Source of the DNA: Lytechinus pictus
Lineage: Eukaryota
DNA: 64,000 bases
Reading direction: 5' to 3'
Assembly (NCBI RefSeq): GCF_037042905.1
Contig: NC_087250.1
Span: 7,194,001 to 7,258,000, forward strand
Positions 3,066 through 64,000 of this stretch are shown here, in pieces. The stretch's first letter is position 1. Each line of letters begins with the position of its first letter. The notes beneath the pieces are model-generated. The model worked only from the letters and a program-made list of their open reading frames with translations. It had not been told where the DNA came from and did no database searches. Position numbers and translations under genes: made by a program.

Positions 3066-3760
3066 ATAATCTGCAATTCTGCATCCAGTGTGCTATCTAA
3101 ATTACAAGTTCTCAGTGCAATATTGCTAATACTATCATTATCCCTGCAAACTAAAAGGATTACATTCCATATTCAATCTCAGAGTAAAAGTCAAATCATG
3201 AGGCGTTCAATATAAGTTTTCTTTTCCACAAAAGAGCAAAGGATTAAGGAAATTTCATGATTCCATTACAACTAACGACTTAGCATTAATTCATTACATG
3301 TTTGGTTATAATTAGAAGGCAATTTTACTATAAAGTTGGGGAAAATATCCCTTCTTCTGCATATCTGTAACATCAAATTGAACTATAGGCCTATACATGA
3401 AGTTGATGAACATTCTTTGCTACAGTACAGCTATTGTAGCAAATGAAAATCCCTACAGGGCAAAATAACACAACCGGATATATCTACCAGGCTAAAATTT
3501 ATTGCTAGATCATTTCTTCAAATGAAGAGTGATAATTTGTTTTTGCTGTTTTTGTAGACTACATGTATACTGAAAAATGAGAGTTTCAAATTTGAACCTT
3601 TTCAATGTTCAGTATTTAATTTTGCACCATTTATGGTGCAGACGAGCATTTCTTGGTACAAATAATAATAAAAAGGTGCATTTTAGCACCATTTTCTCAA
3701 CTTAGGTGTAAGATTGCACCCTAAAAGGTTGCATTTATGGTTAAAACTAAAAAATATTTC

Positions 3761-12258: not shown

Positions 12259-12313
12259 TTATGGCTATAGCAACTTGAGCGTACGTAATGAATGGAGAGA
12301 AGGTAAAAAGGAA

Positions 12314-26452: not shown

Positions 26453-26875
26453 CTGTGATTCGACTTTGCTTTGTTCCTCCTGTTTCGACATCTTTTAACT
26501 TCTATACCTATGTACTGAGTCTGTATTACTCAATGTACATTGTGTGCATGTGCGGAGTTTATATTGCTCTCTGCTCTGCTCTCCATTTGTACATGTACTT
26601 GTACAGTACCAGTCACACATCTTTGATGCCTGTTTGCCTGGCTCAGCCAGAAATCAGTGAATTACATGTATCTATTGTTCTCCGGTTTGAGGCAGGTAGG
26701 CAGTGTCGGGGATGTGTGACTGGTGGTGTTATTTAATTGCACCTGGCAAGACTTTATTAAGCTTTTTTTATTCTGTCAAACTAGTCTTAAGCATTAAAAA
26801 AATCTAATATCACTTTTTTTTGTTCTTTTTTTTTGTATTCTTTTCTTTTGAATAATATATAAGTGTAATTTTTGT

Positions 26876-29939: not shown

Positions 29940-29946
29940 GTGATAT

Positions 29947-31601
29947 GTAATACAATAAACAAATACTTTGTTAACATTGGTCCGAAGTTACATTCTGAAT
30001 TTACATCTAATATAAATACTCAATCTGATTTATTAAAGTATATTACTAAAAATGACAAATCTTTATTTTTGTCCCCAATAACTCCTAAAGAAATATTGGA
30101 TATTGTAACTGGTTTTAAAAATAATGTCAGTGCTGGTTTTGATGGTATTGATGTCAAGGTTGTAAAGAAGTCAATACATGTAATTGCTAAATTATTATGT
30201 GATATATTCAATTCTTCTTTTGTTACTGGGATTTTCCCAGACCAGCTTAAGATTGCAAGAGTGGTCCCTGTTTTTAAATCTGGTTCTCCTGACATTATTT
30301 CAAATTATCGTCCAATTTCCGTTTTATCCATTTTTTCAAAAATATTAGAAAGATGTATTTATTCTCGTTTACATAGTTTCATTTCTCAGTGCAATATTCT
30401 TAACAATAATCAGTTTGGTTTTAGAAAGGGGCACTCCACATCTTCGGCCTTAGCAGAATTTGTATATAAAGTCACAAGTGCATTAGATAAACAGGAAACA
30501 ATGATTGGTCTTTTTATTGATTTAAGCAAAGCTTTTGACTCACTTGATCATGATTTATTATTACGTAAATTAAGTTATTATGGAATTAGGGGGGTTGCAC
30601 TCAGTTTATTTGACAATTATTTTCAAAATCGTAAACAGTTTGTTTCGATTGATAATTTTTCTTCCTCGATGCAAGGTATAAGATGTGGAGTGCCTCAAGG
30701 GTCGATCCTCGGCCCACTTCTGTTTATAATTTACATTAACGATTTAAGTAATGTCTCCAAAATTGTGGACTCTATATTATATGCAGATGACACCAGCTTG
30801 TTCATGTCCCATAAAAATGTACAAACTTTACAAACTATTTTCAATAAGGAACTGAAATATGTATCTAACTGGCTTACTGTTAATAAATTAACCTTAAATG
30901 TTAAGAAATCAAATTTTTTGGTTTTTACAAATAAAAATAGATCACAATTCAAATTTGAGGTTTGTTTAAATGATAAGCCAGTTAATGAAGTAACATTTAC
31001 TACCTTTCTAGGTGTTAATGTCGATAATAAGTTAACTTGGAATGAACATGCTGGTGTCATCTGCAATAAAGTTGCCAAAATCGTTGGTGTTATGTATAAA
31101 CTCCACACATTGCCGAAGAATATTCTTCTTTTATTGTATAATACCTTGATTTTACCATATTTGAATTATTGCAATATAGCCTGGGGTAATGCCTTCCAAA
31201 CACATATTAACAGAATATTTCTTTTGCAGAAAAAGGCCATGAGAATTATAACTCACTCTTCTTATCTCTCCCATTCTGGACCATTGTTTACATCTTTGAA
31301 AATTTTGAATATAATGGATTTGAATAGAATGAATATTGCACTTTTCATGTTTTTCTATAAAAAGGATCTCTTGCCTAATTCACTTAAGAATTATTTTTTA
31401 TTAAACACATCTGTACATACTTATTCAACAAGAAATGCTCAAAATATCCATATTCCACAGTGCAGTACTTCCATCTTCAAAAACAGTATATTTTATCAAG
31501 GACCAGTTATTTGGAACTCAATCCCTTCTGACATTCAATCAAGCCCTTCGGTATCTGTTTTTAAAAGGAAATACAAAACATTTTTATTGTCTAAGTCTTA
31601 G
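29947..31601 (+). pseudogene. LINE ORF2, 3' part (reverse transcriptase)
   Basis: NYRPISVL, QFGFRKGHST, FIDLSKAFD, GVPQGSILGPLLF, YADDT, FLGV; open to TAG at 31601. Confidence 0.93.
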
Positions 31602-46901: not shown

Positions 46902-47041
46902 CAGGGGCCGCGAAAGCGGGGGGCTTCAGCCCCCCACTTTTTTCCAAAACCATGTACAAAAACGTAAAAATTACCATATGATCATGATTTTTTGCATGGT
47001 CAGCCCCCCCCCCCTCTTTGAAAACCGTTCCGCGGCCCCTG
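46902..47041. mobile_element. CAGGGGCCGCGG-family MITE, copy 3 (5-bp TSD)
   Basis: TIRs CAGGGGCCGCG and CGCGGCCCCTG; ACAAG at 46897-46901 and 47042-47046. Confidence 0.88.
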
Positions 47042-47382
47042 ACAAGTGAGTATGACTGAACAAGGCTTAATCTTTGCAAATATCTCATAATATTAGAAAT
47101 CAATCAATTTTATTAATACTGGTATTTCACTTTAATAACAAAGACATAATAAAATTCCACACCTACATGTTCGTGTACGACTTTCCCATCTGTTCAGATG
47201 TGGTGTGGATGGTGCATATTAAAGCCTTAATATTAATTGTTCAGCGTCCTTGTAGTTGATTGCAAATATTTATGATGAGTATGTTACATTCTTTTGTTCC
47301 TCTGCAGGTGAAGAGCCTCCTGAGTGATCATCGATCACCATGGCAACGATAAACAGGGATAGTCTCCTTCAAGACTCCACCG

Positions 47383-47446
47383 ATGTATTCCTACCGTCCG
47401 TCCTCCACCGCCATGGGGGCCACTGAGGTTATAAGACCGTCCTCAG
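47383..47446 (+). CDS. Coding exon 1 (exon 47308-47446; MYSYRPSSTAMGATEVIRPSS)
   Basis: Acceptor CTCTGCAG|47308, donor CAG|GTGAGT; in-frame TAA upstream at 47350; alternative in-frame ATG at 47413 in GCCATGG context. Confidence 0.75.
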
Positions 47447-50400
47447 GTGAGTGAAGGAATAAGAGATGGAGAGATATATAGATGCAAAGATGGGTAGAAA
47501 GATAAATAGATAGAGAGAGAGAAAGAGAGTGTGAGAGATGTAAATACATGTATTGAAATACCTGTAGATAGAAAGATAGATAGATGGATAGATAGATAAG
47601 TGGATTATAGATAGGTACATGTAGATGGAGATATATGGATGGATGGATTGGATAGATGATAGATAGATAGATAAGTGGATTATAGATAGGTAGGTACTTA
47701 ACATGTATGTAGATGGAGATATGTGGATGGATGGATTGGAAAGATGGTAGATTTATAGATAGACAGATAGATAGATAGATAAGTGGGTTATAGATAGGTA
47801 CATGTAGATGGAGATATAAGGATGGGTGGATTGGATAGATGATAGATAAATAGATAGATAGATAGATCGATCGATCTATATGCGGATTATAGATAGGTAG
47901 GTACTGTACATACATATATGGATGGGTGGATGGATAGATAGGATAGAAGATAGATAGATAGATATGAAGGTAGCTGGGTCGTTGGATGGATTGATAGAAA
48001 GAAATAAAGAAAGATGGAAATAAAGAAATAAAACGAACAAATAAAGAAAGAAAGGTAGGTAGATTGATGTACAGGTGTTGATATATGAGGGTTGACAGCT
48101 TGTTGATAAATAGATATAAAGAAAGGAGCCTGAATAACATCAAATAACTCTGTCGTATATTTACAGGTACCCAACCCCAGGGCCACCGGGCGAGAGTGTC
48201 TGGTTCAAGCCCCCTGTCCAGTGCAGGATCGACCGGCTCCCACCGCAACAAGAAGCTGCTGAAGTCCTACCACGACTTCACCATGCAGATCTTCAGCTCC
48301 GGACAGGGAGCGGGGGAGAATGATAACCTGTTCGTGGCAGCTGTACGGAGTGGAGATTACGAGAGGGTAGAGAATATACTGCAAAGGAGAAGCCATGAGG
48401 TAGGGAACATTTGTGGTGGTTGTGGTAGCAGTGGTTGTGGTTGTAGCGTTAGTGGTAGTGGTAGTGTTTGTGGCTGCTTTACGGAGTGGAGATTACGAGA
48501 GGGTAGAGAATATACTGCAAAGGAGAAGTCATGAGGTACATGTAGGGAACATTTGTGGTGGTTGTGGTAGCAGTGGTTGTGGTTGTAGCGTTGGTGGTAG
48601 TGGTAGTGTTTGTGGCTGCTTTACGGAGTGGAGATTATGAGAGAGTAGAGAATATACTACAAAGGAGAAGCCATGAGGTACATGTAGGGAACATTTGTGG
48701 TAGTGGTGGTAGCAGTGGTTGTGGTTGTAGCGTTGGTGGTAGTGGTAGTGTTTGTGGCTGCTTTACGGTGTGGGGATTATGAGAGGGTAGAGAATATACT
48801 ACAAAGGAGAAGCCATGACGAGGTAGGGAACATTTATGGTAGTTGTGGTTGTAGCAGGGGTGGTAGTGTTTGTGACTGTTGTACGGAGTTGAGTTTATGA
48901 GAGGGTGGAGAATATACTGCAAAGAATAAGCCGTGAGGTAGGGAATATTAGTGGTGGTTGTGGTTATAGTAGTAGGAAGGCATGGGAAACACATGCTGAA
49001 AACTGAGAACAGGTGTGATGTGCAGATTTTTCACTTCATGCACAGTGTTGGTTATATTGGATTTTCTTACAATTTTCACGGTTTTTGTTGTGTTTTGTGA
49101 TCCAAAATTTTTTGACCTAAAAAATTTAATTTTCTGCGATGAATTCAGTGATATTGTTTTTCCCAAAGAAAATCACAGAAATCTAGGGACTCCCCTTTAT
49201 TCTATTATATTCCTAGTGATGTCATCATTAAGAAGTCTGTAGTCATAATCTGTTCGACCCATCTCACTTTTCTTCCAGGTCGTCAACGTCGATGCTCGAG
49301 ACCGGGAAACAGGGAACACCGCCCTCATGTGGGCAGTCATCAAAGGTCACATCAAGTTGATCAGGCTCCTCCTCAAGTACGGGGCGGACGTGACGCTGCG
49401 CAACGCTGCCACGGCGTGCGTCCTGGACCTGACAGAGGATCGTCAGATCCGGAAGCTCCTCCTGGAGTCCGTCCTGAGGAAGGGGGTGTCTCCTAGGCAT
49501 CTCCTGCAAGCAGCCTGGCAAGGGAACGCACAGGTCGTCAGGCAACTCTTGGTGAGTGGTAAATGTTTAGGAGGAGGGAGGGTCAAAGATGGCGAGGGGA
49601 AAAGTAGGAGGAAGGGGGTATCTGTTAGGCATCTCCTGCAACAGCCTGGCAAGGGAACATACAGGTTGTTAGACAACTCTTGGTCAGTGGTAAATGTTAA
49701 GGAGAAGGGAGGGTCAAAGATGGTGGGGGTAAAAGTAGGAGGAAGGGGGTATGTTAAGGCATCTCCTGCGAGCAGCCTGGCAATGGAACGTACAGGTTGT
49801 TAGACAACTCCTGGTGAGTGGTAATCCTTAGGAGAGAGGATGGGTAGGGCAGATGATGAAAATTATGAAAAGGATTCCTGTAAGTACCAATTCCATTCCA
49901 ACTTGATAAATTTCATCCTTCCTTAACCTAACATCCAGTTCAGTTAATACATGAGATACAAACAATAAAATTAAATGAACAATTGATAGAATGTAAATTG
50001 GCAGCCAATGTTAAAAAAATATGTTTTTTCCTTTGGTGTTTTACTGAACATACATATCATTTGCATAATGAGTTAAAGTGCCATTTACCATCAATATAAG
50101 AATTTATATTCCTCAATATATTCTTAAATTTTAAATCTACATTATCCTAAATTTGTTTGTCCTTTTGCAGAATGAAAGTAAAATTTTGGACATCAATTGC
50201 AGGAATTCCGATGGATTCACACCGCTATTATTGGTTACTAGAGACGTAGATTTATTTGAATCAAGTAAGTATGATAATAATAATAATAACAGTATATTTA
50301 CCCAGGATAGCCACTTCAGTTCCGAAAACTGTTATCCCAGTGGGCCCTGCTATTATTATTACCCGGCTAAGCTAGGCTACCTATTCAGGTGCATACAGCT

Positions 50401-53400
50401 TTTTTGAGGAATTACTTCCTGCCGGTACCCATTCACCTCACACGGGTCGAGTGCAGCACTCTGTAGGTGAATTCCTTGCTAAAGGAATTTATGCCATGGC
50501 TGGGATTTGAACCCACGACCCTCTGTTTTGAAGTCTGGAGACTAATCGACTGGGCCACAACGCTCCACACTCAAGAGAGGGAAGGAGGAAATAGAGGATG
50601 GGGGGGGGGGGTCAGAGTGAAACGGTAATGTTGCAGATAGATAAATACGGGTGGAAATGAGCAGGATGAACAAGTAGAAATGTGTAATCTGTACGGTAAT
50701 AAAAGATCCTTTTTTTTCTATCTCCTCTTCTCTCGTTCTTCCTGCTTCATCTCTGTTTTCCTTCTTTCTCCTCCTTGTCCTGTTCCTTCACATCTGATTC
50801 ATCCTCTCATCCACCTCATCCTTCTCTCTCTTTATCCCCCGTTCCTTCTCTTCTTCCTCCTCTTCCCCCTTCTCCATCCATCTTCCGCTTCTTCTTTCCT
50901 GTTTCTCCCCCTTCTCCTCCTTCTTTTTCTTCTTCTTCTTCTTCTTCTTCTCCTTCTCTTTCTCCCCCTTCTCCTCTTTCTCCTTTTCTCTCCTCCCCTT
51001 TGTCCCCATCTTCTTCCTCGCCGTCTCTTTTTCCTCTTCTTTCTCCTCAATTTCCTACTCCTTTTTCTCCTCCTTTCTCTTTCTCCTATCCCATTGACAT
51101 GTTTTGTTCTTTCTCTCCCTTCTTTCCCCTATTAGTTGGATCAGCCCTCGAGTCCTACGACCCTCTCGCCGTCATTGAAGAACTCCTTCGCCACCGAGCA
51201 GACCCCATCGCCACCGACCGAGAGAGCCACACCGCCTTGCATTACGTCTCTTCTGGCAGCTCACAACTCACCGACGAACTAGCCATCAGGCTCATGGCCA
51301 TTCCTTCCCTGGCCAACTCCTGCGATGGACGATCCGTTGCGCCGATCCACGTTGCCTCGAAGAGCGGGAGTGTTGATGTCGTGGTAGCGCTTCTAGACCA
51401 TGGGGTTGATGTCAATACAAGAGGCTATGCTGGGTCAACGCCGCTTCATGTTTCGGTGAGTTTATGATTCCGGTGAATCTATATTTGACATCTTCGGCTT
51501 GGAGTCTGTTGCATAAAGAGTTGCAATTAAACGCAATTTACTCAACAACTAACTGACTTAGGGGGTGTTTCAAGAAAATTTTTGCAATCAATTGCAAATA
51601 TTCTGTTGGAATTAATAGATCAATAACTGTCGCAAAGTAGTTAAAATTGCATGTTTGAAGAAGCAGCTTATCAATCAATCGCATATTCACAATTTATTTC
51701 AAAACTTGTGATTGATTTAGGGACCGATAATAAACTTGCAATTGATCGCAAGTTTCTTGCAATGCCCCATTACTGACTTAGGTGCAAAGGATGGTGTGTC
51801 CCTTCGCTCTCCTTCGGGTAATCCTTTTCCATTCGGTTCTACTTCAGTCTAGATCTTCAGCATCCAGTAGAGGGAGACCCACATCACGTCTGACTTGGTC
51901 CCTCCATCTGGAAATTGATAAAAATCAATTGAAACTTTAGTTTTAATCAATCGGAACCATTTTCATATTGGCTGTTTGACCTTTGCACTCAAGATAATTG
52001 AATTTCCTTTTAAGTCAATTTCAGGTTCAGAAATCAATCACAAATTTGTAATCGATTGCAAATTTACAACTGATAGTTGGTGTGCGTCTTGCAACTGAAT
52101 GTATGACTTCTGAAGTTTAGATTCTTTGAATTTGACCCTTGACCTTTGAACTTTAACCTTTGTATGTGACCTCTTTGGTTTAATTTCATTCTGCTTCAAA
52201 CTGGTCAAACTCAGGTTGCTAAACCATGAAGCTGATATCTTTATTGCAGATGTTGTTGGTTCATATTTGACATCCCTGAATTTGCATGAGACCTTTGATT
52301 AATTTCTTTTAGGCTCAAGCTGGTCAAACTCAAGTTGCTAACACCTTGCTAAACCGCAGAGATGATATTCTTATTGTAGATGTTGTTGTTCACCTTCGAC
52401 ATCCCTGAATTGACCCTTGACCTTTTAACCTTTGCACGTGACCTTTGACATTTGCAAGCGACCTTGATTAAATTCTTTCAGGCACAAGCTGGTCAAACTC
52501 AGGTCGCTAACACCCTGATAAACCAAGGAGTTGATATCCTTATTGTAGATGTTGTTGGTTCATATTTGACATTTAATCTTTGCATATTACCTCTGTGATA
52601 GCATTTCTTTCAGACTCAATTAAGCTGGTCAAACTAGGATCGCTAACACATTGTTAAACCGTATATATGACCATACTAGATGATAGTGGTTACAGATTTG
52701 ACCTCATCGAATGGATTCTTGACCTTTAACCTCTGCATGTGACCTCTTTGGTTTCAAGCTGGTTAAACTTCAGTTGCTAACACCCTGCTAAACCACGGCA
52801 CTGATATAACTATGGTAGATGTTATTGGATATATACTTGACCTAACTGTATTGACCCTTGACCATTGCACTTTAACCTGTGCATGTGACCTAATATGTTT
52901 CAATTCATTCAGGCTCAAGCTGGTCAAACTCAGGTCGCTAACACCTTGCTAAACCACGGCGCTGATATCACTATTGTGGATGACAGCGGTAACACGGCTG
53001 TAGATGTAGCTAAGACAAAGAGGATGAAATCTGTTTTAAGAGGTAAGAGCAATCAGATGGCTTATCAAATTTACAGATTTACTGCTTATCAAATTGTCCT
53101 GCGGTTGAATGACTTGAAACACTGCTGAAGATGTAACTAAAGCAAAGAGGATGAACTCGTGAGTTTCATGAAAGGTCTTGTCGGACATTTTTTCCAACAA
53201 GTACTGATTTGTCCGGCAGATTCAAGGGAAAATGTCAGATCTGACAAGTTGTCAGACAAAAAAATGTTGATGAAATGCTCCCCATGAGGCTAATTGTTCA
53301 ATTAAAAAAAAAAGTTTACGTGTGATAAAAAAACGTATATTTAAAGAAAGTTCAGTGAGAGGATTCATCTGTGGGGTTGTCATGGTCTAGTGGTTATGAC

Positions 53401-56400
53401 TCTCGTCTTTCAATCTGAAGGACTTGGTTTCGATTCTTTCTAAATTTAACTCACCTTGTGCTGCACTTGCCCCAGGTGAGGTGAATCGGTACCCGGTAGG
53501 AAGAAATTCCTTGAATGCTGCAGCACCTATATGGCAGCACATCTAGATCGGGGGTAATAATAGCAGTGCTTTGTATCCTCAGGCAAAAAGTGCTTGATAA
53601 ATCCAGCTATTATCTCCATACCTTCTTTGCTTTGACCTTTGACCCTTTGACTTTTGACCTTTGACCCTACATAGATGCATGGATGGACGTAACCGACAAC
53701 AAACAAGCTGAGGTGCTGAGTCCCGTCAAGCCACCGTCTCGTCTGGAAGATCGTAGTCCTAGACAGACTCGAGTTCATAGTCTTACGTCAACCTCGCCAC
53801 CCACTGAGGGACATGGAAGTAAGTGACCCTATAAGACCTTGTGATGTCGCCCTCATCTGACCGACCGTAAAATGCACACAAAAAAACAGGGTCACTATTT
53901 TGTTCATTTAGGCCACCCCCCCCAAAAAAAAAAAAAATATTGAAAATATACAAATGCAATGTTTTTGTGAGAAAATTTCAGATTTGGGCGAAGAATTTGC
54001 TCAAATTTTTGTTAAATGGCTTTAAAAAGAACTCTGATATGTCTGACTGCATTATTGTGTAAATTGTCTCATGCGCAATTTAGTTTGTGCAGTGCTGTAG
54101 CGAAGTTATTAAAAAAAAAAGAATATAGAAAAATGAAAACCTACCAAATGACCCAACTTTCTGATATCGGGCCTATGAGGGCAATATAACAAAAAGAATT
54201 AAGGCCTTTTCTATGCAGGCCCAGTTTCTTGAAATGTGTCACCCCATAGAGGTAGTGTCTTGCATTTTTTCATTGTCATTAATGCTAGCAATTACATGTA
54301 CAAATGGAACAATATTACTGCTATTATTATTATTGCTATTGTAATATTATTATTATTGTTATTATTTTTATCATTATTATAATTGTTATGATTAATATCA
54401 TTGTTACTATTATTATCATTATCATCATCACCATCATAATTATCATCATCATCATTATCACCATTATCATCATCGTTATCACCACCATTATGATCATAAT
54501 AATTGTTAGTAATTAATCTTATCCAAAGAAGATCCTAAATGTATCTTTCTCCATCCATCTTTTCTCTCATCTTAGATCGCATGATGCAGAAGTTTTCTGA
54601 GGCTCATAGAGCACTACAGGAAGAGGAACAACTTCTGAAGGACGTAGAAGCTGGTCGTTATACGCCTGGGTGAGTTCAGTAGAGATTGAAAAAAAGATAA
54701 CGTTTGATATGATAGTGTGGGACATTTGTCCATTAAATTACAAAAATTGATAAAAATCTATAGCTGTTATTCTATTTGTTTCACCTTTGTATTTTTTAAA
54801 AATAATTACTGCTGAATGAATAATTATAATAACATTACGATTGTAATCTGCCAGAAACTTCACAAATGAGAACTCGGTCTCCTCTTTACCATGTCGTATA
54901 ATGATAATAATCATGATAATAATAATGATAATGTAATAATAATGATTGTGATGATGATAATGATGGCAATGATGATGATGATAGTGATGATAAAAATGAT
55001 AATGATGATGACATTGATAATGTTAGCAATGTTGATGATGTGGATGATGAAAATGATAATGAAAATCATAATGATGATAATGATAATAATGGTAAAGAAA
55101 ATAATGATAATGCTAATAATAATAAAATTTCAATAATTCTCCCTCTGCAGACTTCACACAAAAACGCTGAATCTCCTTAGGACCCCTTCCCGCAACTCGC
55201 CCCTCCTAACCACCACCAACCGAGCCCCTGCCCCTCCCAAGACGCCCCGGGTCCTGGACCCTCTCTCAAGCCCCGCCTCCAAGACCAAATCCTCTGAAGG
55301 TCAAGGGTCGAAGAAGCCACGAAGGTCACTGACCTTCTCTGGTCGGGTCAACAGTACATCCAAGGAACAGAGGTCAAGAGGTCACAACAAGGTCAGCAAG
55401 ACAAGATGTAAGTTATCATCTTCACCTTTACTGTTGGAATGTATAATGGTATCATTATTATCTTTATTTATTTATCCAGAGTAGCCTGTTCAGCTTTATA
55501 CAAAAAATATGTCAAATTACGCAATATGTACAATTAAATGCTCATAAAAAATCACGGGTCTTCCACAGGGCTCTGCATTATTGTCTACATACATAAAACA
55601 CATAATTCATAACATAAAGAAAACTAAAACATTTCATTATGTTCTTGTAACATCTCTAAATTTATTCTCAAAACCTCAATTTTCTTTATTGTTATATATT
55701 TGTATCAGAATTCTTACCATGTGTTGTATATTATCTTATTGTTTACACTACACAAGCTGAAACAGACCTTGCATTCGTCTAAGGCAACAACAAAAACAAG
55801 GCAACTTTGTTTTTGGTGCACTTTTAATCTACCGTACTGCTCTTGAAATTTCACCTGTTCCCAAAAAAGCAGTTTTTAGAAGAAAAATACTGTTCACTCT
55901 ATTACTTTACATAAATTTTTATATTTCAGCAGATCCGACAAGTCTTCAGGTCAGTGGAGACGGATCCCAAGTACCTGTTACTGTAGTAGGCCTGGACCTA
56001 GATGACAATCTAAGGGATGTCAGGTAAGACTAAGCCCAGACTATATTCTATTCTATACATGATTAACCTCGACTGTAGTAGTCCTGGAACTAGATGATAG
56101 TCTAAGGGATGTAAGGTAAGAATAAGCCCAGATTATATTCTGTTCTATACATGATTAGTCCATACTGTAGTAGTCCTGGACCTAGATGACAATCTAAGGG
56201 ATGTAACGGTAAGAACAAGCCCATACTATACTCTATTCTATACATGATTAACCTCGACTGTAGTAGTACTGGACCTAGATGACAGTCTAAGGGATGTAAG
56301 GTATAGAATAATCCCAGATTATATTCTATTCTATACATGATCAATGTCTTCTGTAGTAGGCCTGGACCTATAAACTGATTGGCTATCATTTGACCCTTTG

Positions 56401-59400
56401 CCAAATACCAAACATGATTGAATACTTTGTTGTTATTCTTTTAAATGGGATATGAAGCATATCGTGAAATAACATATGAGCAAATCATGTTCAGTTCAGT
56501 GATTTAGAAAGCACTATTTGGGTTGACAACCAATGACCTTCATCTGCTTTTGCACAAATTGTTATTACAAAGTGGCTCATTGCTAGAAATGGGATGGCTA
56601 AGCCAGGATAATAAAAACAGTCCAATGCACACTGCAGAGATTTCATGATAATAGTTACACCGATGTGTTGGCTCAGTTGGTAGAGCATCCGTCTCACAAC
56701 TGGGAGGTCGAGAGTTCAAACCTTGGCTGCGTCAGACCAAAAAGGTGTCAAATGATGGGAGTTGCTTCTACCCTGTTTGGCGTACAACGATTAAAGGGAT
56801 AGAGCCTTGTCGATCTGGCGCTGCACAGCGGCTGCCGGGCCCACGATCAATTGGGCAAAGCAAATTTACAGAGTATTTCATTTCATGTCTATTTCGAACA
56901 ACGAAATATGGATTTGCATTTTCATTTTTTTTTTACATGTTTATTCACTCCTCAGGTTTCAGCGCATAATGCCCTCCGGTGCCAAACAACTCGATCGACA
57001 CGCCTCAACCCAGAGCGACACATCCCTCCACAAACATAGAGGGGGATCTACCCTCCATCGTTTATCAGATCCAAGCCTAACTGATGTAGCCAAGGCCTAC
57101 CATACATTCTGCAATAAGGATTTATCAACCAGCCCGGCATTGGCTCATGTTCCGCCGATACGCACGTCGCAACTCTTGAATCTTGGTAAGAATATATGAA
57201 TTTCTGTAATTCCCTTCATGTTGAGATAAATCAATCATGCTTCAATTTGGTCGTAATCCTGGGGGCCGTTTCATAAAGCTGTTTGACAGTTAAGAGAGAC
57301 TTCATGAATGACTGGTGATCCTTATGCGCTTAATAATCGCCAATGAACATTTTGGTGTATACCATTTACCACAAGAAATGATCACCAGTCATTCTTAATG
57401 TCGCTCTTAGCTTAGAAACAGCTTTATGAAACACTCACCAGTAATGATATCATTATGTACATGAATTTACTGGAATGCTTTTTCTTCCGGTATTCTTAGA
57501 TGAGTCTTACATACATGTACATGCAGACCTGCCAACCAGTACGTTTTAGCCGTATTTAGTACGTTTTTGCAACCAAAATACGGCAGTACGTTTTTTCTTT
57601 GAAAAAAATAAATCGTAATTTATTGAGAAAAATAATCTCTATATGTCTCTATTTCATAAAACGTGCACAAATATGGTTATTAGATCAATGTAATTTCAGG
57701 TAACTTGTTTTTTTTTTCAATCATTTTGTTCAAACCAGAATGAAGATATACACATGTTTTAATGTTTTTTTTTCATCTGCAAGAGCAGTGCGCATTTTAG
57801 CTTGCATGCAGCTTGAGCGCCGCGATGAGCGAGTGCGCCAAGCATTTTATTATGAAATACACTTTTTTGGGGAAAAATACAGTTTTTTTAATCACAGAAT
57901 ACAGTTTTTCATTCCCAGAGGTTGGCAGGTCTGTACATGTAAGTCCAGAAAGTATGTATACCTGACCCTCTGTATGTGAAACCTTCCTGTAGTGATTGTT
58001 TTCTTTGTTTTTTAGTTCATATGAAAGGTTGTAGTGCTCTCAAAGTATAATGTCTTGATCAGTATACAAAGTGAAGTAAAAATAGGAAAAAATGGGGGTT
58101 GGACGTGCGTAAAGGGTTGTTACTTTAAGGACTTGCTCTAACTGAATTTAACACTGAGTAAAAAGCTATTATTAACTTCTAACTGGATCACTTTGATTTC
58201 TTTACAGAACAAATGCATTTGCGGCTGACCTCGCCGAGCCCGAACCCTGAGGCGTCAAGTCTGTACCCAAACTCTCGCAGTGTTCTTCCACACTCGCCAG
58301 GGAACTTTGGTGACAATCGCCACCTACAGGAAACCATCTTTGAGTTTGAGGATGAGGAAGGTGGTGATGGTGATGATAAGAATGAGATGCCAACAATGAG
58401 GCTGAACTTGGAAGAAGTCGTCGACGAGGAGAGCAGAGGTCATCAAGGTTCGCTCCAGAATCGCACCGTCATGTTCAACATCGAAGCTAGTCGTGTCAAC
58501 CCCCTCAAAGATAGTTCTGATTCGGGTCAGGGATCATCCAGGTCGACGGTTAGCCACACCTCCTCTGCTGCGAGCCTTGTCATGTCAAGCCCAAGTCCGC
58601 AGCTTGAAGTCGACCGCAAGGAAGCTGCAAAGAATCGCTTGGGAATCAAGATGACGCCATCTGCCACCAAGGTTCCAGATGAGAGAATTGCACTTTTTCA
58701 AAGAGCACAGATGAAACTTCCAAGCCTTGGTCGGGCCTCGCCTGCCGTCAAACAGTCTCAAGGACAAAAGACAAAACGACAGACAAGTGAAGAGTGCCTT
58801 TCGGTGTTGTCCGTGTCCTCTATAAATGCTGTCATGTCTCCAGATGTTGGAGATGCCAAAGATACAGCAAATGAAGACATCCAGAGCAAATCCTTAGCGA
58901 TTGGTAATGATCTCAATCGTCAGTTGCAGGGTCAACAGAATAGTTTAAATCGGCAGGGTGGGAAACGAAAGATATCTCTTGAGGACAATGCCATGTTGCT
59001 TGAAACAAGAAAGCGATCACTATCTTCCACCAGTGAATCAAAGACACTTACTCCAGCTGCTTCTAGTCAGTCCAGCCGTCCCTCGCCTCTGTCAGGTGGC
59101 AGTGGGACAGCAATGGTAAAAAAGGCTGACGAGCGATTATCTATCGACAGTATGGCTGATAACGCGTCAAAGAAAAACACTGCCCTTGTGACACCATTAT
59201 GTGCCACCAAAGGTACAGCGACCCCTGCTTGCCCTTCCACCAAACGTTTGCCCCATCAGAAAACAGCACAAATCTTTTCTTGTAAGAATGCACAACCTTC
59301 AGCGAACACTGCAAAGAAAATGGCTGATAAGAACCCAAAGACTGAATCTTCCGTACCTGGGACACAAAATGGTACCAAGGGAGAGAAGAAATCAACGCTT

Positions 59401-62400
59401 GTCAGTGCCTCCAAACCGGTTGTTCGGACATTAGAAGTCTTGCCCGTTGCCAAAGTAGATAGCAAATCATCTGGAAAGTTATCTGAAAAGGACACCAACA
59501 AAGGTGATGATCAGGGAAGCTCAAAGCTTGATAAATCTGTTGTGAAAACAGAAGTGAAAACGCCGAAGGAAAAATCAATTACAAGCAGTGATACTGTCAA
59601 GCCAGACAAAACAGGGAAGTCAGAAAGTAAAGCAGTGATCAACAGCAAGGGAAAGACTGGACATGTTTCAAGTAGTATGAAAAGTAGTATGAAAAAGGAG
59701 GACCGTAGATCTGATCTTGTGAAGCCAGCCTCAGATCTTGCTAACAAAAAAGCATGTAATAAGACAGATAAAAAGACTGTTACTTCAAAATCACAGAGAG
59801 AACTTGGTGGAGGGCCTGAAGGGAAAAGTGCAATAAGTGTAAAGAAGGGTGCTGCAGCTCCAACTAACAAAGCCGCATGTAAAACGAAAAATGACCAGGG
59901 TAAAGTGAAAACGGGGAAAAAAGAAGAAGCTGAAAAGAAGTTGATCACTTGGAGAATATCATGTGATGATGATGATGATTCATCAGAATCAGACTTTGAT
60001 AATGAGCAACAGCGATTTGTTGAAGAAGACATTCTTGTTCCAGGGAGAGATCGGAAAGAGCAGAAGGTCTTACGGAAAGGAAGTACAGTTCCTCCATGCA
60101 CAAAGACAGACGACTTTGAGGACCTTGCAGAAAGTAGCGATGCTGAGGATGTTTTTGAGGAAGTGATCTTCAGTGATGAAGAGGACACACCTACAGACAT
60201 CGGTAAAGCTAAGACAAAGCTTATCAAGGACCCATCTAAGATATCCTCAAAGCACCAAAAGCCACCTACATCACAGGGATCCAAGGCAGTTCAAAAGTCC
60301 ACAGTTAAACCTCCAGTAGCAACAAAGAAACCAACACCTGGTACCCAACAGCAGAAGAGTGTTGTCAAGGAATCGGCTAAGGCAAAAGGAACCTTTGTAA
60401 AAAAGCCCCTGAAAACAGAAACGCAGAATGAGACAGTCAAAGGCAAGGTAGCCGTCAAAGGTATGTCTGTGACGAAGACACTGTCAAAGCAACCTAGTCC
60501 AACTGATAATACAAATACCCGCAAGGCTGCTGAGAAAAGCATCTTGAGTGTTTCACATCAGAAGCCTTTGAACACTTCAACCAGCAGCAAAGTCGAGAAA
60601 GAGATTAACAAGGAAAAGCAGCCTCCGGAGAAAAACAGCTCAAATGCTTTGAAGCAAAAGCCTTCCGAGGTTGTGAAAGATGGTAGAAGTGATGTTAAAG
60701 GAGTGGACAGCAAAGAAAAGACGGTACTTAAAACCGTACAGCAAAAGACAAATGTGAAGAATGCTGCGTCACCGGCGAAAGTTCAGAACAGTTCTGTAAG
60801 TTCAAAAGTAGAAAACAAGCAAGATGCTCCACAGGTGAAGTCTAGTGTTGCAATAGATAGCAGTAAGGAAGACCTGAAGGTCTCTGAGAGACTTGAAGGT
60901 GAAGCAATTGAATTTAAAGGTGTTGCTTCAACAGAAACAGGTGAAAGTTTAGAGGTCAATCCTGCCGGTCAGAATTACATTGACCCTGCTGTAAAGGTCA
61001 TAACATCAGAACAAGGTGATGACATTCATCTGAACCCAATCAGTCCAAAAGAACCAAAACCTGGGAATAATTCCTTCAGGAAAGGGAAGTACAAGTCTCC
61101 AAACACCTCGCCTCGTGATTTTCCTGCTTCAGAGGCCGCAGTGCCGGAAAAGAAGCCTGTCCGTGACCCAATGGCTGCCAAACAGTCCCCGGTGATCATG
61201 GATATAGTGGAGATGTTTAAGTCGGCCAGTTCTGGAACATCCCCCGATGTCAAACTTGAGGTCTTGGGAAAGATCAAGGATCGTGTTGCTAGTGTAAAGG
61301 GTCCTGTGAAGAAGCTGGTGAAGAATGTTCCAAAGAAGGTCTCGGCTACTGTGCAAGCAAAAGGAAATAAGGGAAAGAGCAAGGACCGAATTGGCAGTGG
61401 TGGGAAGAGTAAAGGAAGAGTTGGAAGTGGAGGAAGTAGGAGCGGTGATGGGTCAAAGGTTATGAAAAAGACCAAGAAATCAAATGGAAGGACAAAGTCA
61501 AAGAAGAAGATGAAGGAAGTGAATTACAGCCTGTTGCCAGATTCAGAGCAAAACAACACTGCCTTCATCACAGGTCAGGGCTGGAGCATCAAGACCTCAA
61601 GGAATGAGAACGATGATGTTATCCTCCAGGAGAATAATCAGGACGATTCCTCAGACGATGATGTGGGAAATCTCGAGCTTCCTAACCTTGGTGAATCGCA
61701 GCTCAGTCCGCACAACTCCCTGAAATTGGATGAGTTGGTCGTGATGAGGTCAATATCTCTGGAAGAAAAGAAGAATTTGGTGAACATCTTGAGCCCGCTT
61801 GAGATGAATGCTCCTTACTTTATTCCAGACACCATGGGCACAATCAAGGAGTTTGTCGACTCTCTCAAAAGTGATTCTTCAGAGATCAGTGCGGTGAAAG
61901 CTGCGGTGAGGGACAATCATTCCGATTCTCAAACTCAAGGCAATGTGACTGAAAATGTAGATCCAAGAGAAGAAAGGTCTATGGCTCATGCGGAGACAGA
62001 TTCGACTAATCTTGATCACGGAACGAATACTGATACTAAGAAGAGCCCTCCAGTTCCAGATGTAAGGGTTAGGAAAAGCAGCACCCATTCCCAGATGGAT
62101 AATGCCATACATAATCCTGAACATGACAGTGGACACCTTGGTCTTACTGGAGAGCTGTCAAATTACGATACCAACCCTGAACTCCTCAAGGTTTTCCACA
62201 TCAAGGATCACTATGAGACGGTGTCTTCTCAAGGGTCACGTCGAACTTCCATCGCTTCAGACGAGGAAGCAGTGCGGGAACATCTAAGTTTGATTCTGAA
62301 CAAACCGGACAGCGGGAGTGATGCGAATGAAGACCAAGGTGGTAGCAACATGAGAGGACAGTCTGGTGAAGATTCACCAGGACAAAGAAGAGAGCCGAAG

Positions 62401-63111
62401 GGTAATGTCCTCAAGAAGAAGCCACCCTTACCAAAACTACTCCATCAGCATCAGATCCAGTCTTCCAGACGGCCCAGCCCAAGGCGAGCCAGTGAACCAA
62501 ACTTACCACCTCCTGATGCTGACAGTACCTCCTTTTCTGTAACTCCCATCAAGAAACTTGAACAGAAGAGAGAAGAGAACAAGTCTCAAGTTTCAACAAT
62601 AAAGAACAGTCTTCCAGATAAGAAGTTCAGCCCTCCGTCTTCTTCCACGAAGAAACAGCGTGGCAAATCCCTCGGAGACGTGCCTTCAGATGCCTCGAGC
62701 AAAGATCATGGTCCGAGTTCAAGTACCACCAGCCTTCCCATCAAGTCCTCGATCATTGAGGAAGATGGTCACCAAGATTCTGCTGATGAAGATTGGGTCG
62801 AGGAGGAAGAGCCTCTTGCCAGACACGTCCAGACGCTGACGGAGAAGACACTCCAGGAATTCGAAACCATTGCTCAATCTGTTGATACCGCCACAACCTC
62901 TGTTATCCACACCCGACCTCCATCATCAGCCGGTGGGCAGTCCATCCATACCGCCAGGAGCTCTATCAGGAGTGTCTCTCCTAGCCCTAGGGTGAGGGAT
63001 GTCATCAATGTGCAAGGAGGTGACCAGGAAGAAAGAGAGTTCTTGAATCAGAGCATCGCGCTCTCTGAAACAAGCAGTGAGGTCTTCAGGGATTTCAACG
63101 ATACCGGAGAG
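47383..63111 (+). CDS. Spliced, 3'-partial gene: ankyrin-repeat N-terminus plus long Lys/Ser-rich disordered region; tentatively MAP3K19/YSK4-like (kinase domain not in window)
   Basis: join(47383-47446,48167-48399,49279-49551,50171-50264,51136-51455,52913-53042,53675-53818,54576-54669,55151-55407,55930-56023,56956-57185,58208-63111) = 6837 nt, 2279 codons; all introns GT-AG, phases match, no stops. Confidence refers to the gene model; the family name is much less certain. Confidence 0.88.
47460..48120. repeat. (GATA)/(GGAT)-based compound repeat with higher-order unit of about 100-120 bp
   Basis: GATAAGTGGATTATAGATAGGTA recurs at about 47594, 47670 and 47778, and more diverged near 47880. 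Confidence 0.85.
48167..48399 (+). CDS. Coding exon 2 (start of first ankyrin repeat)
   Basis: TTACAG|GT...GAG|GTAGGG; ...NLFVAAVRSGDYERVENILQRRSHE. Confidence 0.88.
48327..48965 (+). repeat. Tandem array: exon-2 3' end plus donor, original and 4 copies
   Basis: TACGGAGTGGAGATTACGAGAGGGTAGAGAATATACTGCAAAGGAGAAGCCATGAG|GTA repeated; GT at 48400, 48536, 48678, 48823, 48938. Confidence 0.95.
49279..49551 (+). CDS. Coding exon 3 (ankyrin repeats)
   Basis: TTCCAG|...TTG|GTGAGT; VNVDARDRETGNTALMWAVIKGHIKLIRLLLKYGADV...LLQAAWQGNAQVVRQLL. Confidence 0.93.
49477..49845 (+). repeat. Tandem array: exon-3 3' end plus donor, original and 2 copies (131-bp unit)
   Basis: AGGCATCTCCTGC..CAGCCTGGCAA.GGAAC..ACAGGT.GT.AG.CAACTC.TG|GT repeated; GT at 49552, 49683, 49814. 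Confidence 0.95.
50171..50264 (+). CDS. Coding exon 4
   Basis: TTGCAG|...A|GTAAGT; NESKILDINCRNSDGFTPLLLVTRDVDLFES. Confidence 0.92.
50271..50569 (-). mobile_element. tRNA-derived SINE, same head and core as 33301-33595 but a different tail
   Basis: TGTGGAGCGTTGTGGCCCAGT head, GGTTCAAATCC B box, GAGGTGAATGGGTACC core, (TTA)n end a few bases from the exon-4 donor. Confidence 0.88.
50715..51130. repeat. Polypyrimidine low-complexity tract of about 400 bp upstream of the exon-5 acceptor
   Basis: Almost entirely C/T on the + strand, includes (CTT)n. Confidence 0.9.
51136..51455 (+). CDS. Coding exon 5 (ankyrin repeats)
   Basis: ATTAG|...TCG|GTGAGT; HTALHY, APIHVASKSGSVDVVVALLDHGVDVNTRGYAGSTPLHVS. 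Confidence 0.93.
52130..52990 (+). repeat. Tandem array: acceptor plus exon-6 5' end, 5 degenerate copies upstream of the true exon
   Basis: CAAGCTGGTCAAACTCAGGTCGCTAACACC-like units at about 52197, 52316, 52485, 52622 and 52756, with the true copy at 52916; AG retained at 52312, 52481 and 52613. Confidence 0.93.
52913..53042 (+). CDS. Coding exon 6 (last ankyrin repeat)
   Basis: ATTCAG|...G|GTAAGA; AQAGQTQVANTLLNHGADITIVDDSGNTAVDVAKTKRMKSVLR. Confidence 0.92.
53371..53612 (+). mobile_element. tRNA-derived SINE, degenerate, third tail type
   Basis: TGGTCTAGTGG A box, degenerate B box, CCCAGGTGAGGTGAATCGGTACCCGGTAGGA core, CGGGGGTAATAAT junction. Confidence 0.8.
53675..53818 (+). CDS. Coding exon 7
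   Basis: ACATAG|...A|GTAAGT; DAWMDVTDNKQAEVLSPVKPPSR...; phase 1 to 1. Confidence 0.88.
54310..54512. repeat. (ATT)/(ATC)n degenerate microsatellite
   Basis: Trinucleotide periodicity visible directly. Confidence 0.9.
54576..54669 (+). CDS. Coding exon 8
   Basis: TCTTAG|...GG|GTGAGT; RMMQKFSEAHRALQEEEQLLKDVEAGRYTPG. Confidence 0.88.
54898..55125. repeat. (GAT)/(AAT)n degenerate microsatellite
   Basis: Trinucleotide periodicity visible directly. Confidence 0.9.
55151..55407 (+). CDS. Coding exon 9
   Basis: CTGCAG|...T|GTAAGT; open in the expected phase; Pro/Ser/Arg-rich. Confidence 0.87.
55930..56023 (+). CDS. Coding exon 10 (NAGNAG acceptor)
   Basis: TTTCAG|CAG|ATC...CAG|GTAAGA; phase 1 to 2 bridges exons 9 and 11. 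Confidence 0.85.
55980..56369 (+). repeat. Tandem array: exon-10 3' end plus donor, original, 3 copies and a partial (92-93-bp unit)
   Basis: ACTGTAGTAG.CCTGGACCTAGATGACA.TCTAAGGGATGT..G|GTA repeated; GT at 56024, 56116, 56209, 56301. Confidence 0.95.
56659..56935 (+). mobile_element. tRNA-derived SINE of a second family (Meta-domain-like core, from recall)
   Basis: A box TGGCTCAGTTGG, B box GAGTTCAAACC, followed by GTCAGACCAAA...CCCTGTTTGGCG...TTAAAGGGA and a T-rich end. Confidence 0.75.
56956..57185 (+). CDS. Coding exon 11
   Basis: CCTCAG|...G|GTAAGA; RFQRIMPSGAKQLDRHASTQSD...SQLLNL. Confidence 0.88.
57262..57438. mobile_element. Palindromic Harbinger-like MITE
   Basis: GTTTCATAAAGCTGTTT pairs with AAACAGCTTTATGAAAC, and GAATGACTGGTGATC with GATCACCAGTCATTC. 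Confidence 0.7.
57524..57933. mobile_element. MITE with 6-bp TSD (hAT6-like), copy 2
   Basis: Perfect TIRs CAGACCTGCCAACC and GGTTGGCAGGTCTG; TACATG at 57518-57523 and 57934-57939. Confidence 0.92.
58208..63111 (+). CDS. Coding exon 12, giant exon of 4904 bp, low-complexity and probably disordered
   Basis: TTTACAG| acceptor in phase 1, uninterrupted ORF, GAG|GTAGGT donor; the ORF-track extension to 63195 reads into a MITE. Confidence 0.92.
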
Positions 63112-63127
63112 GTAGGTACAGACCCTG

Positions 63128-63282
63128 GGGCCATTTCAGATAGAGTTACAACTGTGGCAACCTTGCCCTTATTGTTACTCCCATGGAAACTTTGATTGCG
63201 ATTTATTGCTGAACCCTGTTACCAATGTAGTTATTGTAGTGGCAAAGCAACAACAGTTGTAAGTCTTTTATGAAATGGGCCC
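63128..63282. mobile_element. Harbinger-like MITE, 3-bp TSD
   Basis: Imperfect TIRs GGGCCATTTCA and TGAAATGGGCCC; CTG at 63125-63127 and 63283-63285. Confidence 0.75.
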
Positions 63283-64000
63283 CTGTATCTTAACTAATCT
63301 CTTAATAAGACTTTGAAACATAGAAATTGATATCTTCCAATGTAGCTTAATAATTATTGCTTTAGTAATTGAGTATATGAATTTTAAAAAGGCCCAAGTC
63401 CATAGGAGGTCATTTCGAGAAAAATTGAAAAAAAAATTGATATTTTTTTTAATTTGGGCAATTAAAGTATATTTGACCGAAAGAAAGACATCAGAGAACA
63501 TATAAAACAAATTTAAGTGTACATTTTCATGAACATTAATATTTACGTTACTTGTGGGCGGGGCCTTTTGTCTGATGGACTTGGGTCATTCTTAGAATCA
63601 TATGTACTTGGACCATTCTTACATTCATATACATGGTAGACTTCTGTAGTAAGTAGCAGAAATAATGAGAGAGGGCGCTATGATATGAATGTAAGAATAG
63701 CCCAAGTCCTAGATTACCAGATTTTCCTTCTTTAAGGCATTTCTGAGAACAATTTCCCATATTTAACTCAATTTCGCCAAAAATACTCAATTGTTAATAA
63801 TACACTACAGTCACTGATGGTTCATTCAAGATTGCATCCTTGCAGATTTTTCTCTTGAAAGGATATTTTCTAACAGCATGTTTCAGACCTATCATACTAT
63901 TTGTTTTAGGGCAGCATTGCTAGTCTTCAACAATTTATTTTGAAGTGCTTAGGTAGCCAAGAAAATCAACATTACTGATTGATTATACATTGTGTCACTA

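What the first reader, a model, noticed from the sequence alone, without database searches (positions are those of the whole stretch)
48327..56369. Junction echoes: four exon-intron boundaries of one gene tandemly re-copied into the intron
Seen: unrelated 92-170-bp units, each spanning a real splice site, are arrayed at the exon 2 donor (4 extra), exon 3 donor (2), exon 6 acceptor (5) and exon 10 donor (3 plus a partial). The true exon is always at the array edge, and most copies retain GT or AG. Every alternative site I translated gives a frameshift or premature stop. Inference: either a duplication process biased to splice junctions, or retained decoy/poison sites tuning splicing and NMD; also a route to new exons and introns. 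I do not know of this being described as a recurring system. Null model: ordinary tandem duplication filtered by selection.
Basis: partly seen in the sequence, partly recalled or inferred. Interest (0 to 1): 0.8.

Follow-up and report, generated by a model that had tools for sequence, protein, structure and literature searches.

The report
Mirage repeats at exon boundaries
Short stretches that span exon-intron boundaries of one sea-urchin kinase gene have been copied in tandem into the adjoining introns, a little-known repeat type ('mirage' minisatellite, described in amphioxus) that clusters in this gene far more than chance allows.

Summary
Four tandem arrays (units 142, 131, about 122-170 and 93 bp) each span a real splice junction of an 18-exon ankyrin-repeat/kinase gene. 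Orthologue proteins show that the edge copies are the authentic sites.

Amphioxus 'mirages' (Adh3, troponin C, globins, PGBD5) and the human F7 intron-7 VNTR are the same kind. This scan has also noted it in annelids (e1-7275744, e1-7142826).

New here:
- The rest of the gene, outside the window, carries four more junction arrays, so 8 of 34 junction sides are affected, against 1 of 136 in other genes (Fisher p 1e-5).
- All eight long-period arrays in the gene span junctions. The random-placement null gives 8e-7, and 5e-4 for the four out-of-window arrays alone.
- A KIFC1-like kinesin is a second hot gene.
- Echo GT/AG decays at the background rate (29 of 38 kept), and every echo site tested gives a premature stop, so decoy function is not supported.
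- Echo exon parts differ mostly at synonymous sites, and copies nearest the junction are most like it. This points to repeated budding from the live exon.

No RNA or read evidence could be obtained. Verdict: real mirage minisatellites, probably neutral, made by a junction-biased, gene-clustered process of unknown mechanism.

The parts
47383..47446 (+). exon 1 (start codon; donor CAG|GTGAGT)
   Evidence: tblastn with orthologue proteins; sequence and frame
48167..48399 (+). exon 2; authentic donor GAG|GTAGGG at 48399/48400
48329..48975 (+). array A1: 142-bp unit (about 71 bp exon-2 end + about 71 bp intron start). Real copy 48329-48470; echoes 48471-48612, 48613-48754, 48755-48873, 48880-48964 (97, 94, 91, 89% identical to the real copy)
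   Evidence: all four echoes keep GT; use of any echo donor meets a stop 132 nt past the junction
49279..49551 (+). exon 3 (ankyrin repeat); donor TTG|GTGAGT
49476..49845 (+). array A2: 131-bp unit (76 bp exon-3 end + 55 bp intron). Real copy 49476-49606; echoes 49608-49737 (GTCAGT) and 49739-49845 (GTGAGT)
50171..50264 (+). exon 4, no array
51136..51455 (+). exon 5 (ankyrin repeats), no long-period array; CT-rich low-complexity tract just upstream
52132..52982 (+). array A3: about 122-170-bp units (intron-5 end + first 70 bp of exon 6). Echoes 52132-52252, 52283-52382, 52405-52551, 52572-52660, 52724-52821; real copy 52846-52982. AG kept in 3 of 5 echoes
   Evidence: missed by TRF
52913..53042 (+). 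exon 6 (ankyrin repeat); authentic acceptor is the last copy of A3
53118..53158 (+). degenerate 41-bp copy of the 3' part of exon 6, 76 bp into intron 6 (possible remnant of a donor-side echo)
   Evidence: 85% identity to 52991-53031
53675..53818 (+). exon 7, no array
54576..54669 (+). exon 8, no long-period array
55151..55407 (+). exon 9, no array
55930..56023 (+). exon 10; donor CAG|GTAAGA
55979..56370 (+). array A4: 93-bp unit (45 bp exon-10 end + 48 bp intron), 185-bp super-period. Real copy 55979-56071; echoes 56072-56157, 56163-56256, 56257-56344; partial copy 56351-56370
56956..57185 (+). exon 11, no array
58208..63111 (+). exon 12 (4904 bp, low-complexity linker). The gene continues beyond the window (exons 13-18, kinase domain) with four more junction arrays

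Best explanation
These are 'mirage'-type minisatellites: real germline tandem duplications whose unit straddles an exon-intron boundary. Each began as one duplication of 55-205 bp across a junction. That leaves the mRNA unchanged as long as the copy contiguous with the exon body is spliced. The array then grew mainly at the exon-proximal end, by unequal exchange or conversion involving the live junction unit, and pushed older copies outward into the intron. Shown: the arrays, their positions, the conserved authentic sites, neutral decay of the echo GT/AG, the synonymous-biased variation, the identity gradient, and the strong excess of junction arrays in this gene. Inferred: the echo sites are mostly silent because the splicing machinery takes the outermost site that completes the exon (5'-to-3' scanning or exon definition, as shown for human F7). 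Any leaky use yields a premature stop and decay of the transcript. The echoes themselves have no selected function. The initial duplications come from a mutational process that is biased to coding/non-coding boundaries and concentrated in particular genes; its mechanism is unknown.
For: The arrays and copies were verified. The authentic sites are fixed by collinearity with four echinoid proteins. Four further junction arrays lie in the same gene outside the window: exon 13 acceptor 87 bp x2.4; exon 14 donor, real + 3; exon 15 donor, about 205 bp, real + 1 + partial; exon 17 donor, 55/108 bp, about 9-10 copies. One pipeline gives 8 of 34 junction sides here against 1 of 136 in 37 myosin exons, 26 exons of 7 other kinesin genes and 5 SNF2 exons, Fisher p 9.6e-6. 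The out-of-window part alone gives 4 of 11, p 8.5e-5. Random placement gives 0.06-0.33 per array, a product of 8e-7, and 4.9e-4 for the four unseen arrays. A second hot gene is a KIFC1-like kinesin with 3 of 8 sides affected; excluding the array that drew attention to it, 2 of 7, p 0.006. GT/AG is kept in 29 of 38 echoes against 0.77 expected (plus reading). All 14 usable echo sites in the window give in-frame stops. Exon-derived parts carry 65 synonymous and 64 non-synonymous unique variants, against 27% synonymous expected from the spectrum of the intron parts, p 1.4e-8. Variants shared by all echoes split 10:2, shared by some 18:10, private 31:43. Identity to the real unit falls with distance, permutation p 0.019. 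Precedents: amphioxus mirages splice normally by RT-PCR, and copy number differs between haplotypes (PMC3087553 section 16). F7 pseudo-sites are silent (PMC1557585 abstract and discussion).
Against: Silence of the echo sites, copy-number polymorphism and correctness of the assembly are therefore all inferred. Baseline exon ends are Pfam match ends and not exact junctions, so the baseline may be slightly undercounted. The baseline is 136 sides from three protein families only. The focal gene was chosen because of its arrays, although the out-of-window half and the kinesin test are free of that bias. Echo donors are as consensus-like as the authentic ones (6-8 of 9 positions), so leaky use is plausible, and a regulatory role through transcript decay cannot be excluded. 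The synonymous bias could also mean constraint on the echoes themselves.
Confidence: 0.7

Rival explanations
1. Pure chance plus filter. Ordinary tandem duplications fall at random, those inside exons are purged, and in a compact gene many of the rest happen to straddle junctions.
For: In other genes the rate (1 of 136 sides) equals what array density predicts: about 0.09 arrays per kb gives 0.7-1.4 expected. Per array, the chance of spanning a junction in this compact gene is not small (0.06-0.33). The scan covers very many windows, so striking coincidences will be picked.
Against: Eight of 8 long-period arrays in the gene span junctions (product 8e-7). P(at least 8 of 34 sides) at the background density is at most 2e-9. 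A second gene shows the same clustering. The flanking non-genic DNA has only background array density.
Confidence: 0.07
2. Selected decoy or poison splice sites. The echo sites are kept because they tune splicing or feed transcripts to nonsense-mediated decay.
For: The arrays cluster in particular genes. Echo donors match the consensus as well as the authentic ones. Every use gives a premature stop. Echo exon parts show a constraint-like synonymous bias.
Against: GT/AG decays at the background rate (29 of 38 against 0.77 expected). In the exon-17 array, half of the units have lost GT. The synonymous bias is strongest in variants shared among copies and weakest in private ones, as expected from budding off a constrained exon and not from constraint on the echoes. 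In amphioxus and human F7 the extra sites are silent (PMC3087553 section 16; PMC1557585).
Confidence: 0.12
3. Assembly artefact: alleles or reads wrongly stacked in tandem at exon-intron borders of a very heterozygous genome.
For: Sea-urchin genomes are highly heterozygous (my own knowledge, not from a call). No reads could be laid to check.
Against: There are up to 10 copies per array, 80-97% identical, with indels and higher-order periods. Two alleles cannot give this. Independent arrays occur in several genes. The same structures were confirmed experimentally in amphioxus, according to PMC3087553 and PMC3902484.
Confidence: 0.04
4. The echo copies are genuine alternative coding exons or alternative exon ends.
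For: Echo exon parts keep open frames with few amino-acid changes in some arrays: A1 copies 2 and 3 are 100% identical in amino acids over 19 residues, and the kinesin echoes are similar.
Against: All 14 alternative sites in the window lead to in-frame stops. Orthologue proteins show no insertions at these junctions. Kinesin units are 151 nt, so each adds a frameshift.
Confidence: 0.02

Closest known systems
'Mirage' minisatellites of amphioxus (Adh3, troponin C, globins BflGb6/BflGb9, PGBD5; named by Canestro et al. 2002, which I could read only through PMC3087553 section 16 and passages of PMC3902484)
   Same: The tandem units span an exon-intron boundary, at either 5' or 3' boundaries. Units run from tens of bp to about 160 bp and copies are 81-100% alike. 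Many but not all copies keep AG/GT. The authentic copy lies at the array edge. Several boundaries of one gene can be hit (PGBD5).
   Different: A different phylum (echinoderm). My searches listed no sea-urchin case. Here at least 8 junctions of one gene are hit. I give a quantitative excess over other genes and over random placement, a synonymous-biased footprint and a distance gradient; in the papers I read I did not see such tests. Splicing and copy-number polymorphism, shown in amphioxus, are untested here.
Human F7 intron 7 37-bp VNTR (Borensztajn et al. 2006, PMC1557585; abstract and discussion read)
   Same: The first repeat unit contains the exon-intron junction, so the authentic donor is followed by a row of pseudo-donors. 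This gives the working model for why only the most upstream site is used.
   Different: It is a single locus with 37-bp units identical in sequence. Here the units are 55-205 bp and diverged, acceptor-side arrays are included, and many junctions of one gene are affected.
Intron gain by tandem genomic duplication (Rogers model; Hellsten et al. 2011, PMC3265369; review PMC3443670 section 8; Gao and Lynch 2009 not held, cited only through that review)
   Same: A short intragenic tandem duplication supplies duplicated splice signals.
   Different: That model duplicates an exonic AGGT and uses both copies to create a new intron. Here the duplicated segment already contains a working junction, no new intron exists, and the copies sit inside the old intron.

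Membership tests
mirage minisatellite (amphioxus type) | tandem repeat whose unit spans an exon-intron boundary | tested here: met
   Eight arrays, each with at least 14-15 bp on both sides of a junction fixed by orthologue collinearity
mirage minisatellite (amphioxus type) | both 5' and 3' exon boundaries can be affected | tested here: met
   Six donor-side arrays (exons 2, 3, 10, 14, 15, 17) and two acceptor-side arrays (exons 6, 13)
mirage minisatellite (amphioxus type) | many but not all units keep AG/GT | tested here: met
   29 of 38 echoes keep the dinucleotide (read by eye)
mirage minisatellite (amphioxus type) | regular splicing is not disturbed (only the authentic copy is used) | not testable with these tools
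Indirect only: orthologue proteins match the edge-copy junctions
mirage minisatellite (amphioxus type) | copy number unstable between haplotypes or individuals; concerted evolution within the array | tested here: inconclusive
   No second haplotype or reads available. Higher-order periods (185 bp in A4, 108 bp at exon 17) and the identity gradient indicate turnover
F7-type junction VNTR | first unit holds the authentic donor, followed by pseudo-donors that stay silent | tested here: inconclusive
   The structure is met for six donor arrays. Silence is not testable
intron gain by tandem duplication | duplicated AGGT sites are used as the donor and acceptor of a new intron absent from relatives | tested here: not met
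   The protein is collinear with four echinoid orthologues, with no new intron position implied. The copies lie inside pre-existing introns
poison exon / decoy splice site | splice signals conserved above background and used in a regulated way | tested here: not met
   The conservation part is not met (29 of 38 against 0.77 expected). Usage is untestable here

The most novel reading that the evidence does not exclude
A mutational process aimed at coding/non-coding boundaries operates in particular genes of highly heterozygous marine invertebrates. Repair or recombination synthesis primed in a conserved exon stalls or switches template where homology ends. That break in homology could be a diverged allelic intron, or the exon-exon joint of a spliced transcript or cDNA used as repair template. 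The result is duplication of the boundary. Mirages would then be scars of this process and a steady source of new splice sites, intron sliding and intron gain. The duplications abutting or spanning stop codons (the focal gene's 3' UTR; kinase locus L018) would belong to the same process.
Probability: 0.3. Interest if true: 0.8.

Novelty: new member of a known kind. Interest (0 to 1): 0.6.

Why it matters
How splice sites and introns move or arise is an old open question, and mirages were proposed as one route, but only anecdotally and only in amphioxus. This locus shows the phenomenon in an echinoderm. It also gives numbers: about a quarter of one gene's junctions carry arrays, against under 1% elsewhere, and every array in the gene sits on a junction. 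That makes a junction-targeted, gene-clustered duplication process a testable hypothesis in a model-organism clade with good embryology, RNA tools and several sequenced species. It also warns annotators: echo copies score as extra exons in protein and Pfam searches.

Tried and rejected
1. RNA and read evidence. The run search listed no holder on record as RNA.

2. Junction centred in the unit. In the four window arrays the junction lies at 0.41-0.58 of the unit, which looked non-random. With more arrays (exon 17 at about 0.69; kinesin at about 0.63 and 0.79), and allowing for detection limits, this is not significant. Dropped.

3. Circular-RNA or backsplice origin. I saw no AG/GT at the unit boundaries of A1 and A4 when reading. 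Not pursued.

4. Mutational bias as the cause of the synonymous excess. A spectrum taken from the intron parts predicts 27% synonymous, against 50% observed. Rejected, with the caveat that CpG classes were poorly sampled.

5. Tandem Pfam hits as a genome-wide detector. These gave 1 clear cluster among 436 exon matches. An SNF2 lead proved to be a read-through alignment with no repeat. The detector is insensitive to short exon parts.

6. A whole-genome pattern test (three spaced donor motifs against permuted motifs) was judged under-powered by estimate and was not run.

8. Papers not held: Canestro 2002 and Gao and Lynch 2009. No supplements were read.

9. The upstream 47 kb holds only two LINE-like elements and no other Pfam-recognisable gene, so there was no in-window control gene.
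Full report
**What is there**

The window is G000:C6:7194001-7258000 of an 812-Mb sea-urchin assembly. From 47.4 kb to the window end runs the 5' two-thirds of a plus-strand gene. Its product is 94% identical to an uncharacterised Lytechinus pictus protein, 92% to L. variegatus and 69% to S. purpuratus. The product has N-terminal ankyrin repeats, a long low-complexity linker and a C-terminal protein-kinase domain.

I mapped the orthologue proteins by tblastn and required GT-AG borders and an open frame. This gives 18 exons and 2629 aa. Exons 1-12 lie in the window, and exons 13-18 lie in the next 6.1 kb, which I fetched as L041/L042. An alignment of four echinoid orthologues, including Diadema, shows no insertions at the junctions. 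The sites I call authentic are therefore old and conserved.

**Check of the observation**

TRF finds the arrays at the exon 2, exon 3 and exon 10 donors.

| Array | Junction | Unit | Copies | Identity to real unit |
|---|---|---|---|---|
| A1 | exon 2 donor | 142 bp | real + 4 | 97-89% |
| A2 | exon 3 donor | 131 bp | real + 2 | 89, 88% |
| A3 | exon 6 acceptor | about 122-170 bp | 5 + real | 83-89% |
| A4 | exon 10 donor | 93 bp | real + 3 + partial | 91-94% |

- The units occur nowhere else in the genome.
- In the window, 9 of 9 echo donors keep GT and 3 of 5 echo acceptors keep AG.
- All 11 echo-donor choices and the 3 intact echo acceptors run into an in-frame stop. Three of these 14 add a multiple of three bases but still contain a stop.
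- Echo donors match the consensus about as well as the authentic donors, at 6-8 of 9 positions.
It follows from geometry: only the copy contiguous with the exon body can be the real one.

**It is a known kind**

Full-text searches led to three sources.

- Ebner et al. [quoted passage not shown] The units are 150-160 bp and copies are 81-100% identical. One globin has 6 units in one haplotype and 3 in the other. Many but not all units keep AG/GT, and splicing is normal by RT-PCR. The paper says the generating mechanism is unclear and offers a model for intron gain. It attributes the name to Canestro et al. 2002 (Adh3), which is not held.
- Pavelitz et al. 2013 (PMC3902484, passage read) add PGBD5 and troponin C.
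- In the human F7 gene, a 37-bp VNTR has its first unit spanning the exon 7 donor. The pseudo-donors are functional but silent, because the most upstream site is taken (PMC1557585, abstract and discussion read).

The scan's own earlier notes record the same structure in annelids. They include the remark that variation among units is mostly synonymous (e1-7275744, e1-7142826). I found no sea-urchin report in the listings.

**What is new: the gene is a hot spot**

The part of the gene outside the window carries four more junction arrays:

| Junction | Unit | Copies |
|---|---|---|
| exon 13 acceptor | 87 bp | x2.4 |
| exon 14 donor | about 120-127 bp | real + 3 |
| exon 15 donor | about 205 bp | real + 1 + partial |
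| exon 17 donor | 55 bp, 108-bp super-unit | about 9-10 |

I used one fixed pipeline throughout: blastn self-hits with offset 40-800 bp, at least 35 bp long, not low-complexity, and covering at least 14-15 bp on each side of the junction.

- The focal gene scores 8 of 34 junction sides.
- No other long-period, non-low-complexity array lies inside its introns. The only other internal repeats are microsatellite-like.
- There are also two degenerate exon-fragment copies (53118-53158; L041 3080-3126) and a 124-bp duplication that starts 5 bp after the stop codon.

For a baseline I harvested exon loci of other genes with Pfam searches of the same genome.

- The baseline comprised 74 sides of myosin-head exons (loci L043-L072), 52 sides from seven other kinesin genes and 10 sides of an SNF2 gene.
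- One of these 136 sides is positive, a 73-bp acceptor echo in a myosin gene.
- That equals the expectation from the background density of arrays, about 0.09 per kb, which gives 0.7-1.4 expected.
- Focal gene against baseline: Fisher p 9.6e-6.

All eight doing so has probability 8e-7, and the four unseen ones 4.9e-4. The DNA flanking the gene has only background array density.

**A second hot gene**

In the kinesin search, five tandem Pfam hits to the same motor-domain segment marked an acceptor-side array. It has 4 echoes of 151 bp, 88-96% identical, in a gene whose best named relative is 'carboxy-terminal kinesin 2-like' of L. variegatus. The 8.5 kb held (L073) also carries an acceptor array at another exon (3 echoes) and a donor echo in which GT has become TT, so 3 of 8 sides are affected. 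Leaving out the array that drew attention, 2 of 7 against 1 of 136 gives p 0.006. Junction arrays therefore cluster by gene.

**Function or by-product?**

Across 11 arrays, the splice dinucleotide is kept in 29 of 38 echoes (17 of 24 GT, 12 of 14 AG). The count comes, with some copies read by eye. The mean copy identity of about 0.88 predicts 0.77, so there is no difference. There is no sign that the sites are preserved or purged.

**History of the copies**

The exon-derived parts of the echoes differ from the live exon by 65 synonymous and 64 non-synonymous unique variants.

- Third codon positions carry 67 of the 129 variants.
- A substitution spectrum taken from the intron-derived parts of the same units predicts 27% synonymous (p 1.4e-8).
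- The bias is strongest for variants present in all echoes (10:2) or in some echoes (18:10), and weakest for private variants (31:43).
- Exon parts are slightly less diverged than intron parts, 9.8% against 12.5% (p 0.02).
- Copies nearer the real junction tend to be more like it (permutation p 0.019).

Together these fit arrays that grow at the exon-proximal end by exchange with the live, selected unit. Older copies then record earlier synonymous states of the exon. They do not require selection on the echoes, though that is not excluded.

**Mechanism**

Shown: real structures in the assembly, junction-biased and gene-clustered, with turnover anchored at the live junction.

Inferred from F7 and amphioxus: the echo sites stay silent because the outermost site that completes the exon is chosen, and leaky products would carry premature stops.

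Unknown: why junctions, and why these genes. The two duplications that abut or span stop codons (the focal 3' UTR; kinase locus L018) hint that the relevant feature may be the boundary between constrained and unconstrained sequence and not splicing as such. This suggests template switching where homology between diverged alleles, or between gene and spliced transcript, ends. That is speculation, and I give it a probability of about 0.3.

**Limits**

- No RNA or DNA reads could be laid.
- No orthologous genomic loci were available.
- Baseline exon ends are Pfam match ends.
- The baseline covers three families.
- Canestro 2002 and Gao and Lynch 2009 were not readable, and no supplements were consulted.

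Noticed in passing
window 8637-13790 (-) and 25673-31601 (+): Two LINE-like retrotransposon remnants. The first has reverse transcriptase, zf-RVT and zinc-knuckle ORFs; the second has an endonuclease/exonuclease/phosphatase domain plus reverse transcriptase. No other Pfam-recognisable gene lies in the upstream 47 kb.
   Followed up: partly
window 49856-49930: A dispersed repeat of about 75 bp in intron 3, with at least 38 other copies (73-93% identical) on many contigs of the genome. Probably a small mobile-element fragment.
   Followed up: no
L041 6105-6306 (= 70105-70306 in window numbering, outside the window): A 124-bp tandem duplication (78% identity) that starts 5 bp after the gene's stop codon, so it sits at the coding/3'-UTR boundary.
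   Followed up: partly
L018 (G000:C15:1400156-1403833, minus strand), oriented positions 2286-2491: A 103-bp x2 tandem duplication (91% identity) that spans the stop codon of a kinase ORF. The first copy keeps the reading frame end, and the second repeats the last codons, the stop and the 3' flank.
   Followed up: partly
G000:C7:28966763-29009091: At least 11 identically scoring kinase-domain ORFs (337 aa open frames; 10 score alike, one slightly higher) in a head-to-tail array with 4.0-4.3 kb spacing.
   Followed up: no
G000:C14:19492925 / C15:17985039 and C4:3066033 / C5:27338036: Two pairs of kinase-domain matches with identical scores and ORF lengths (1393 aa; 357 aa) on different chromosomes. 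The second pair also shares the same 3' tandem array. They may be recent interchromosomal duplicates or mobile-element cargo.
   Followed up: no
L056 oriented 1086-1191 vs 1567-1672: A degenerate copy (76% identity) of the inner part of a myosin-head exon lies 481 bp upstream of that exon. It may be a decayed duplicate or an alternative exon, and it is not a junction echo.
   Followed up: partly
L075 oriented 2559-2655 vs 3287-3377: The first 100 bp or so of two consecutive introns of a kinesin gene are 78% alike, each starting 10-17 bp after the exon match. No exon sequence is shared.
   Followed up: no
window 50842-51080: A 240-bp CT-rich low-complexity tract directly upstream of the exon 5 acceptor, forming an unusually long pyrimidine run.
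   Followed up: no
one search hit list (P0007, P0008, P0009): Predicted kinesin proteins of Danionella, Globodera and a Logan assembly score higher against the single kinesin exon than the 100%-identical sea-urchin orthologue does. This suggests the segment occurs more than once in those models, perhaps because echo copies were annotated as exons.
   Followed up: no
window 50290-50570, 53360-53560, 56660-56850: Stretches that looked tRNA-derived (SINE-like) by eye. ARAGORN found no tRNA in 47000-64000, so this is unverified.
   Followed up: partly
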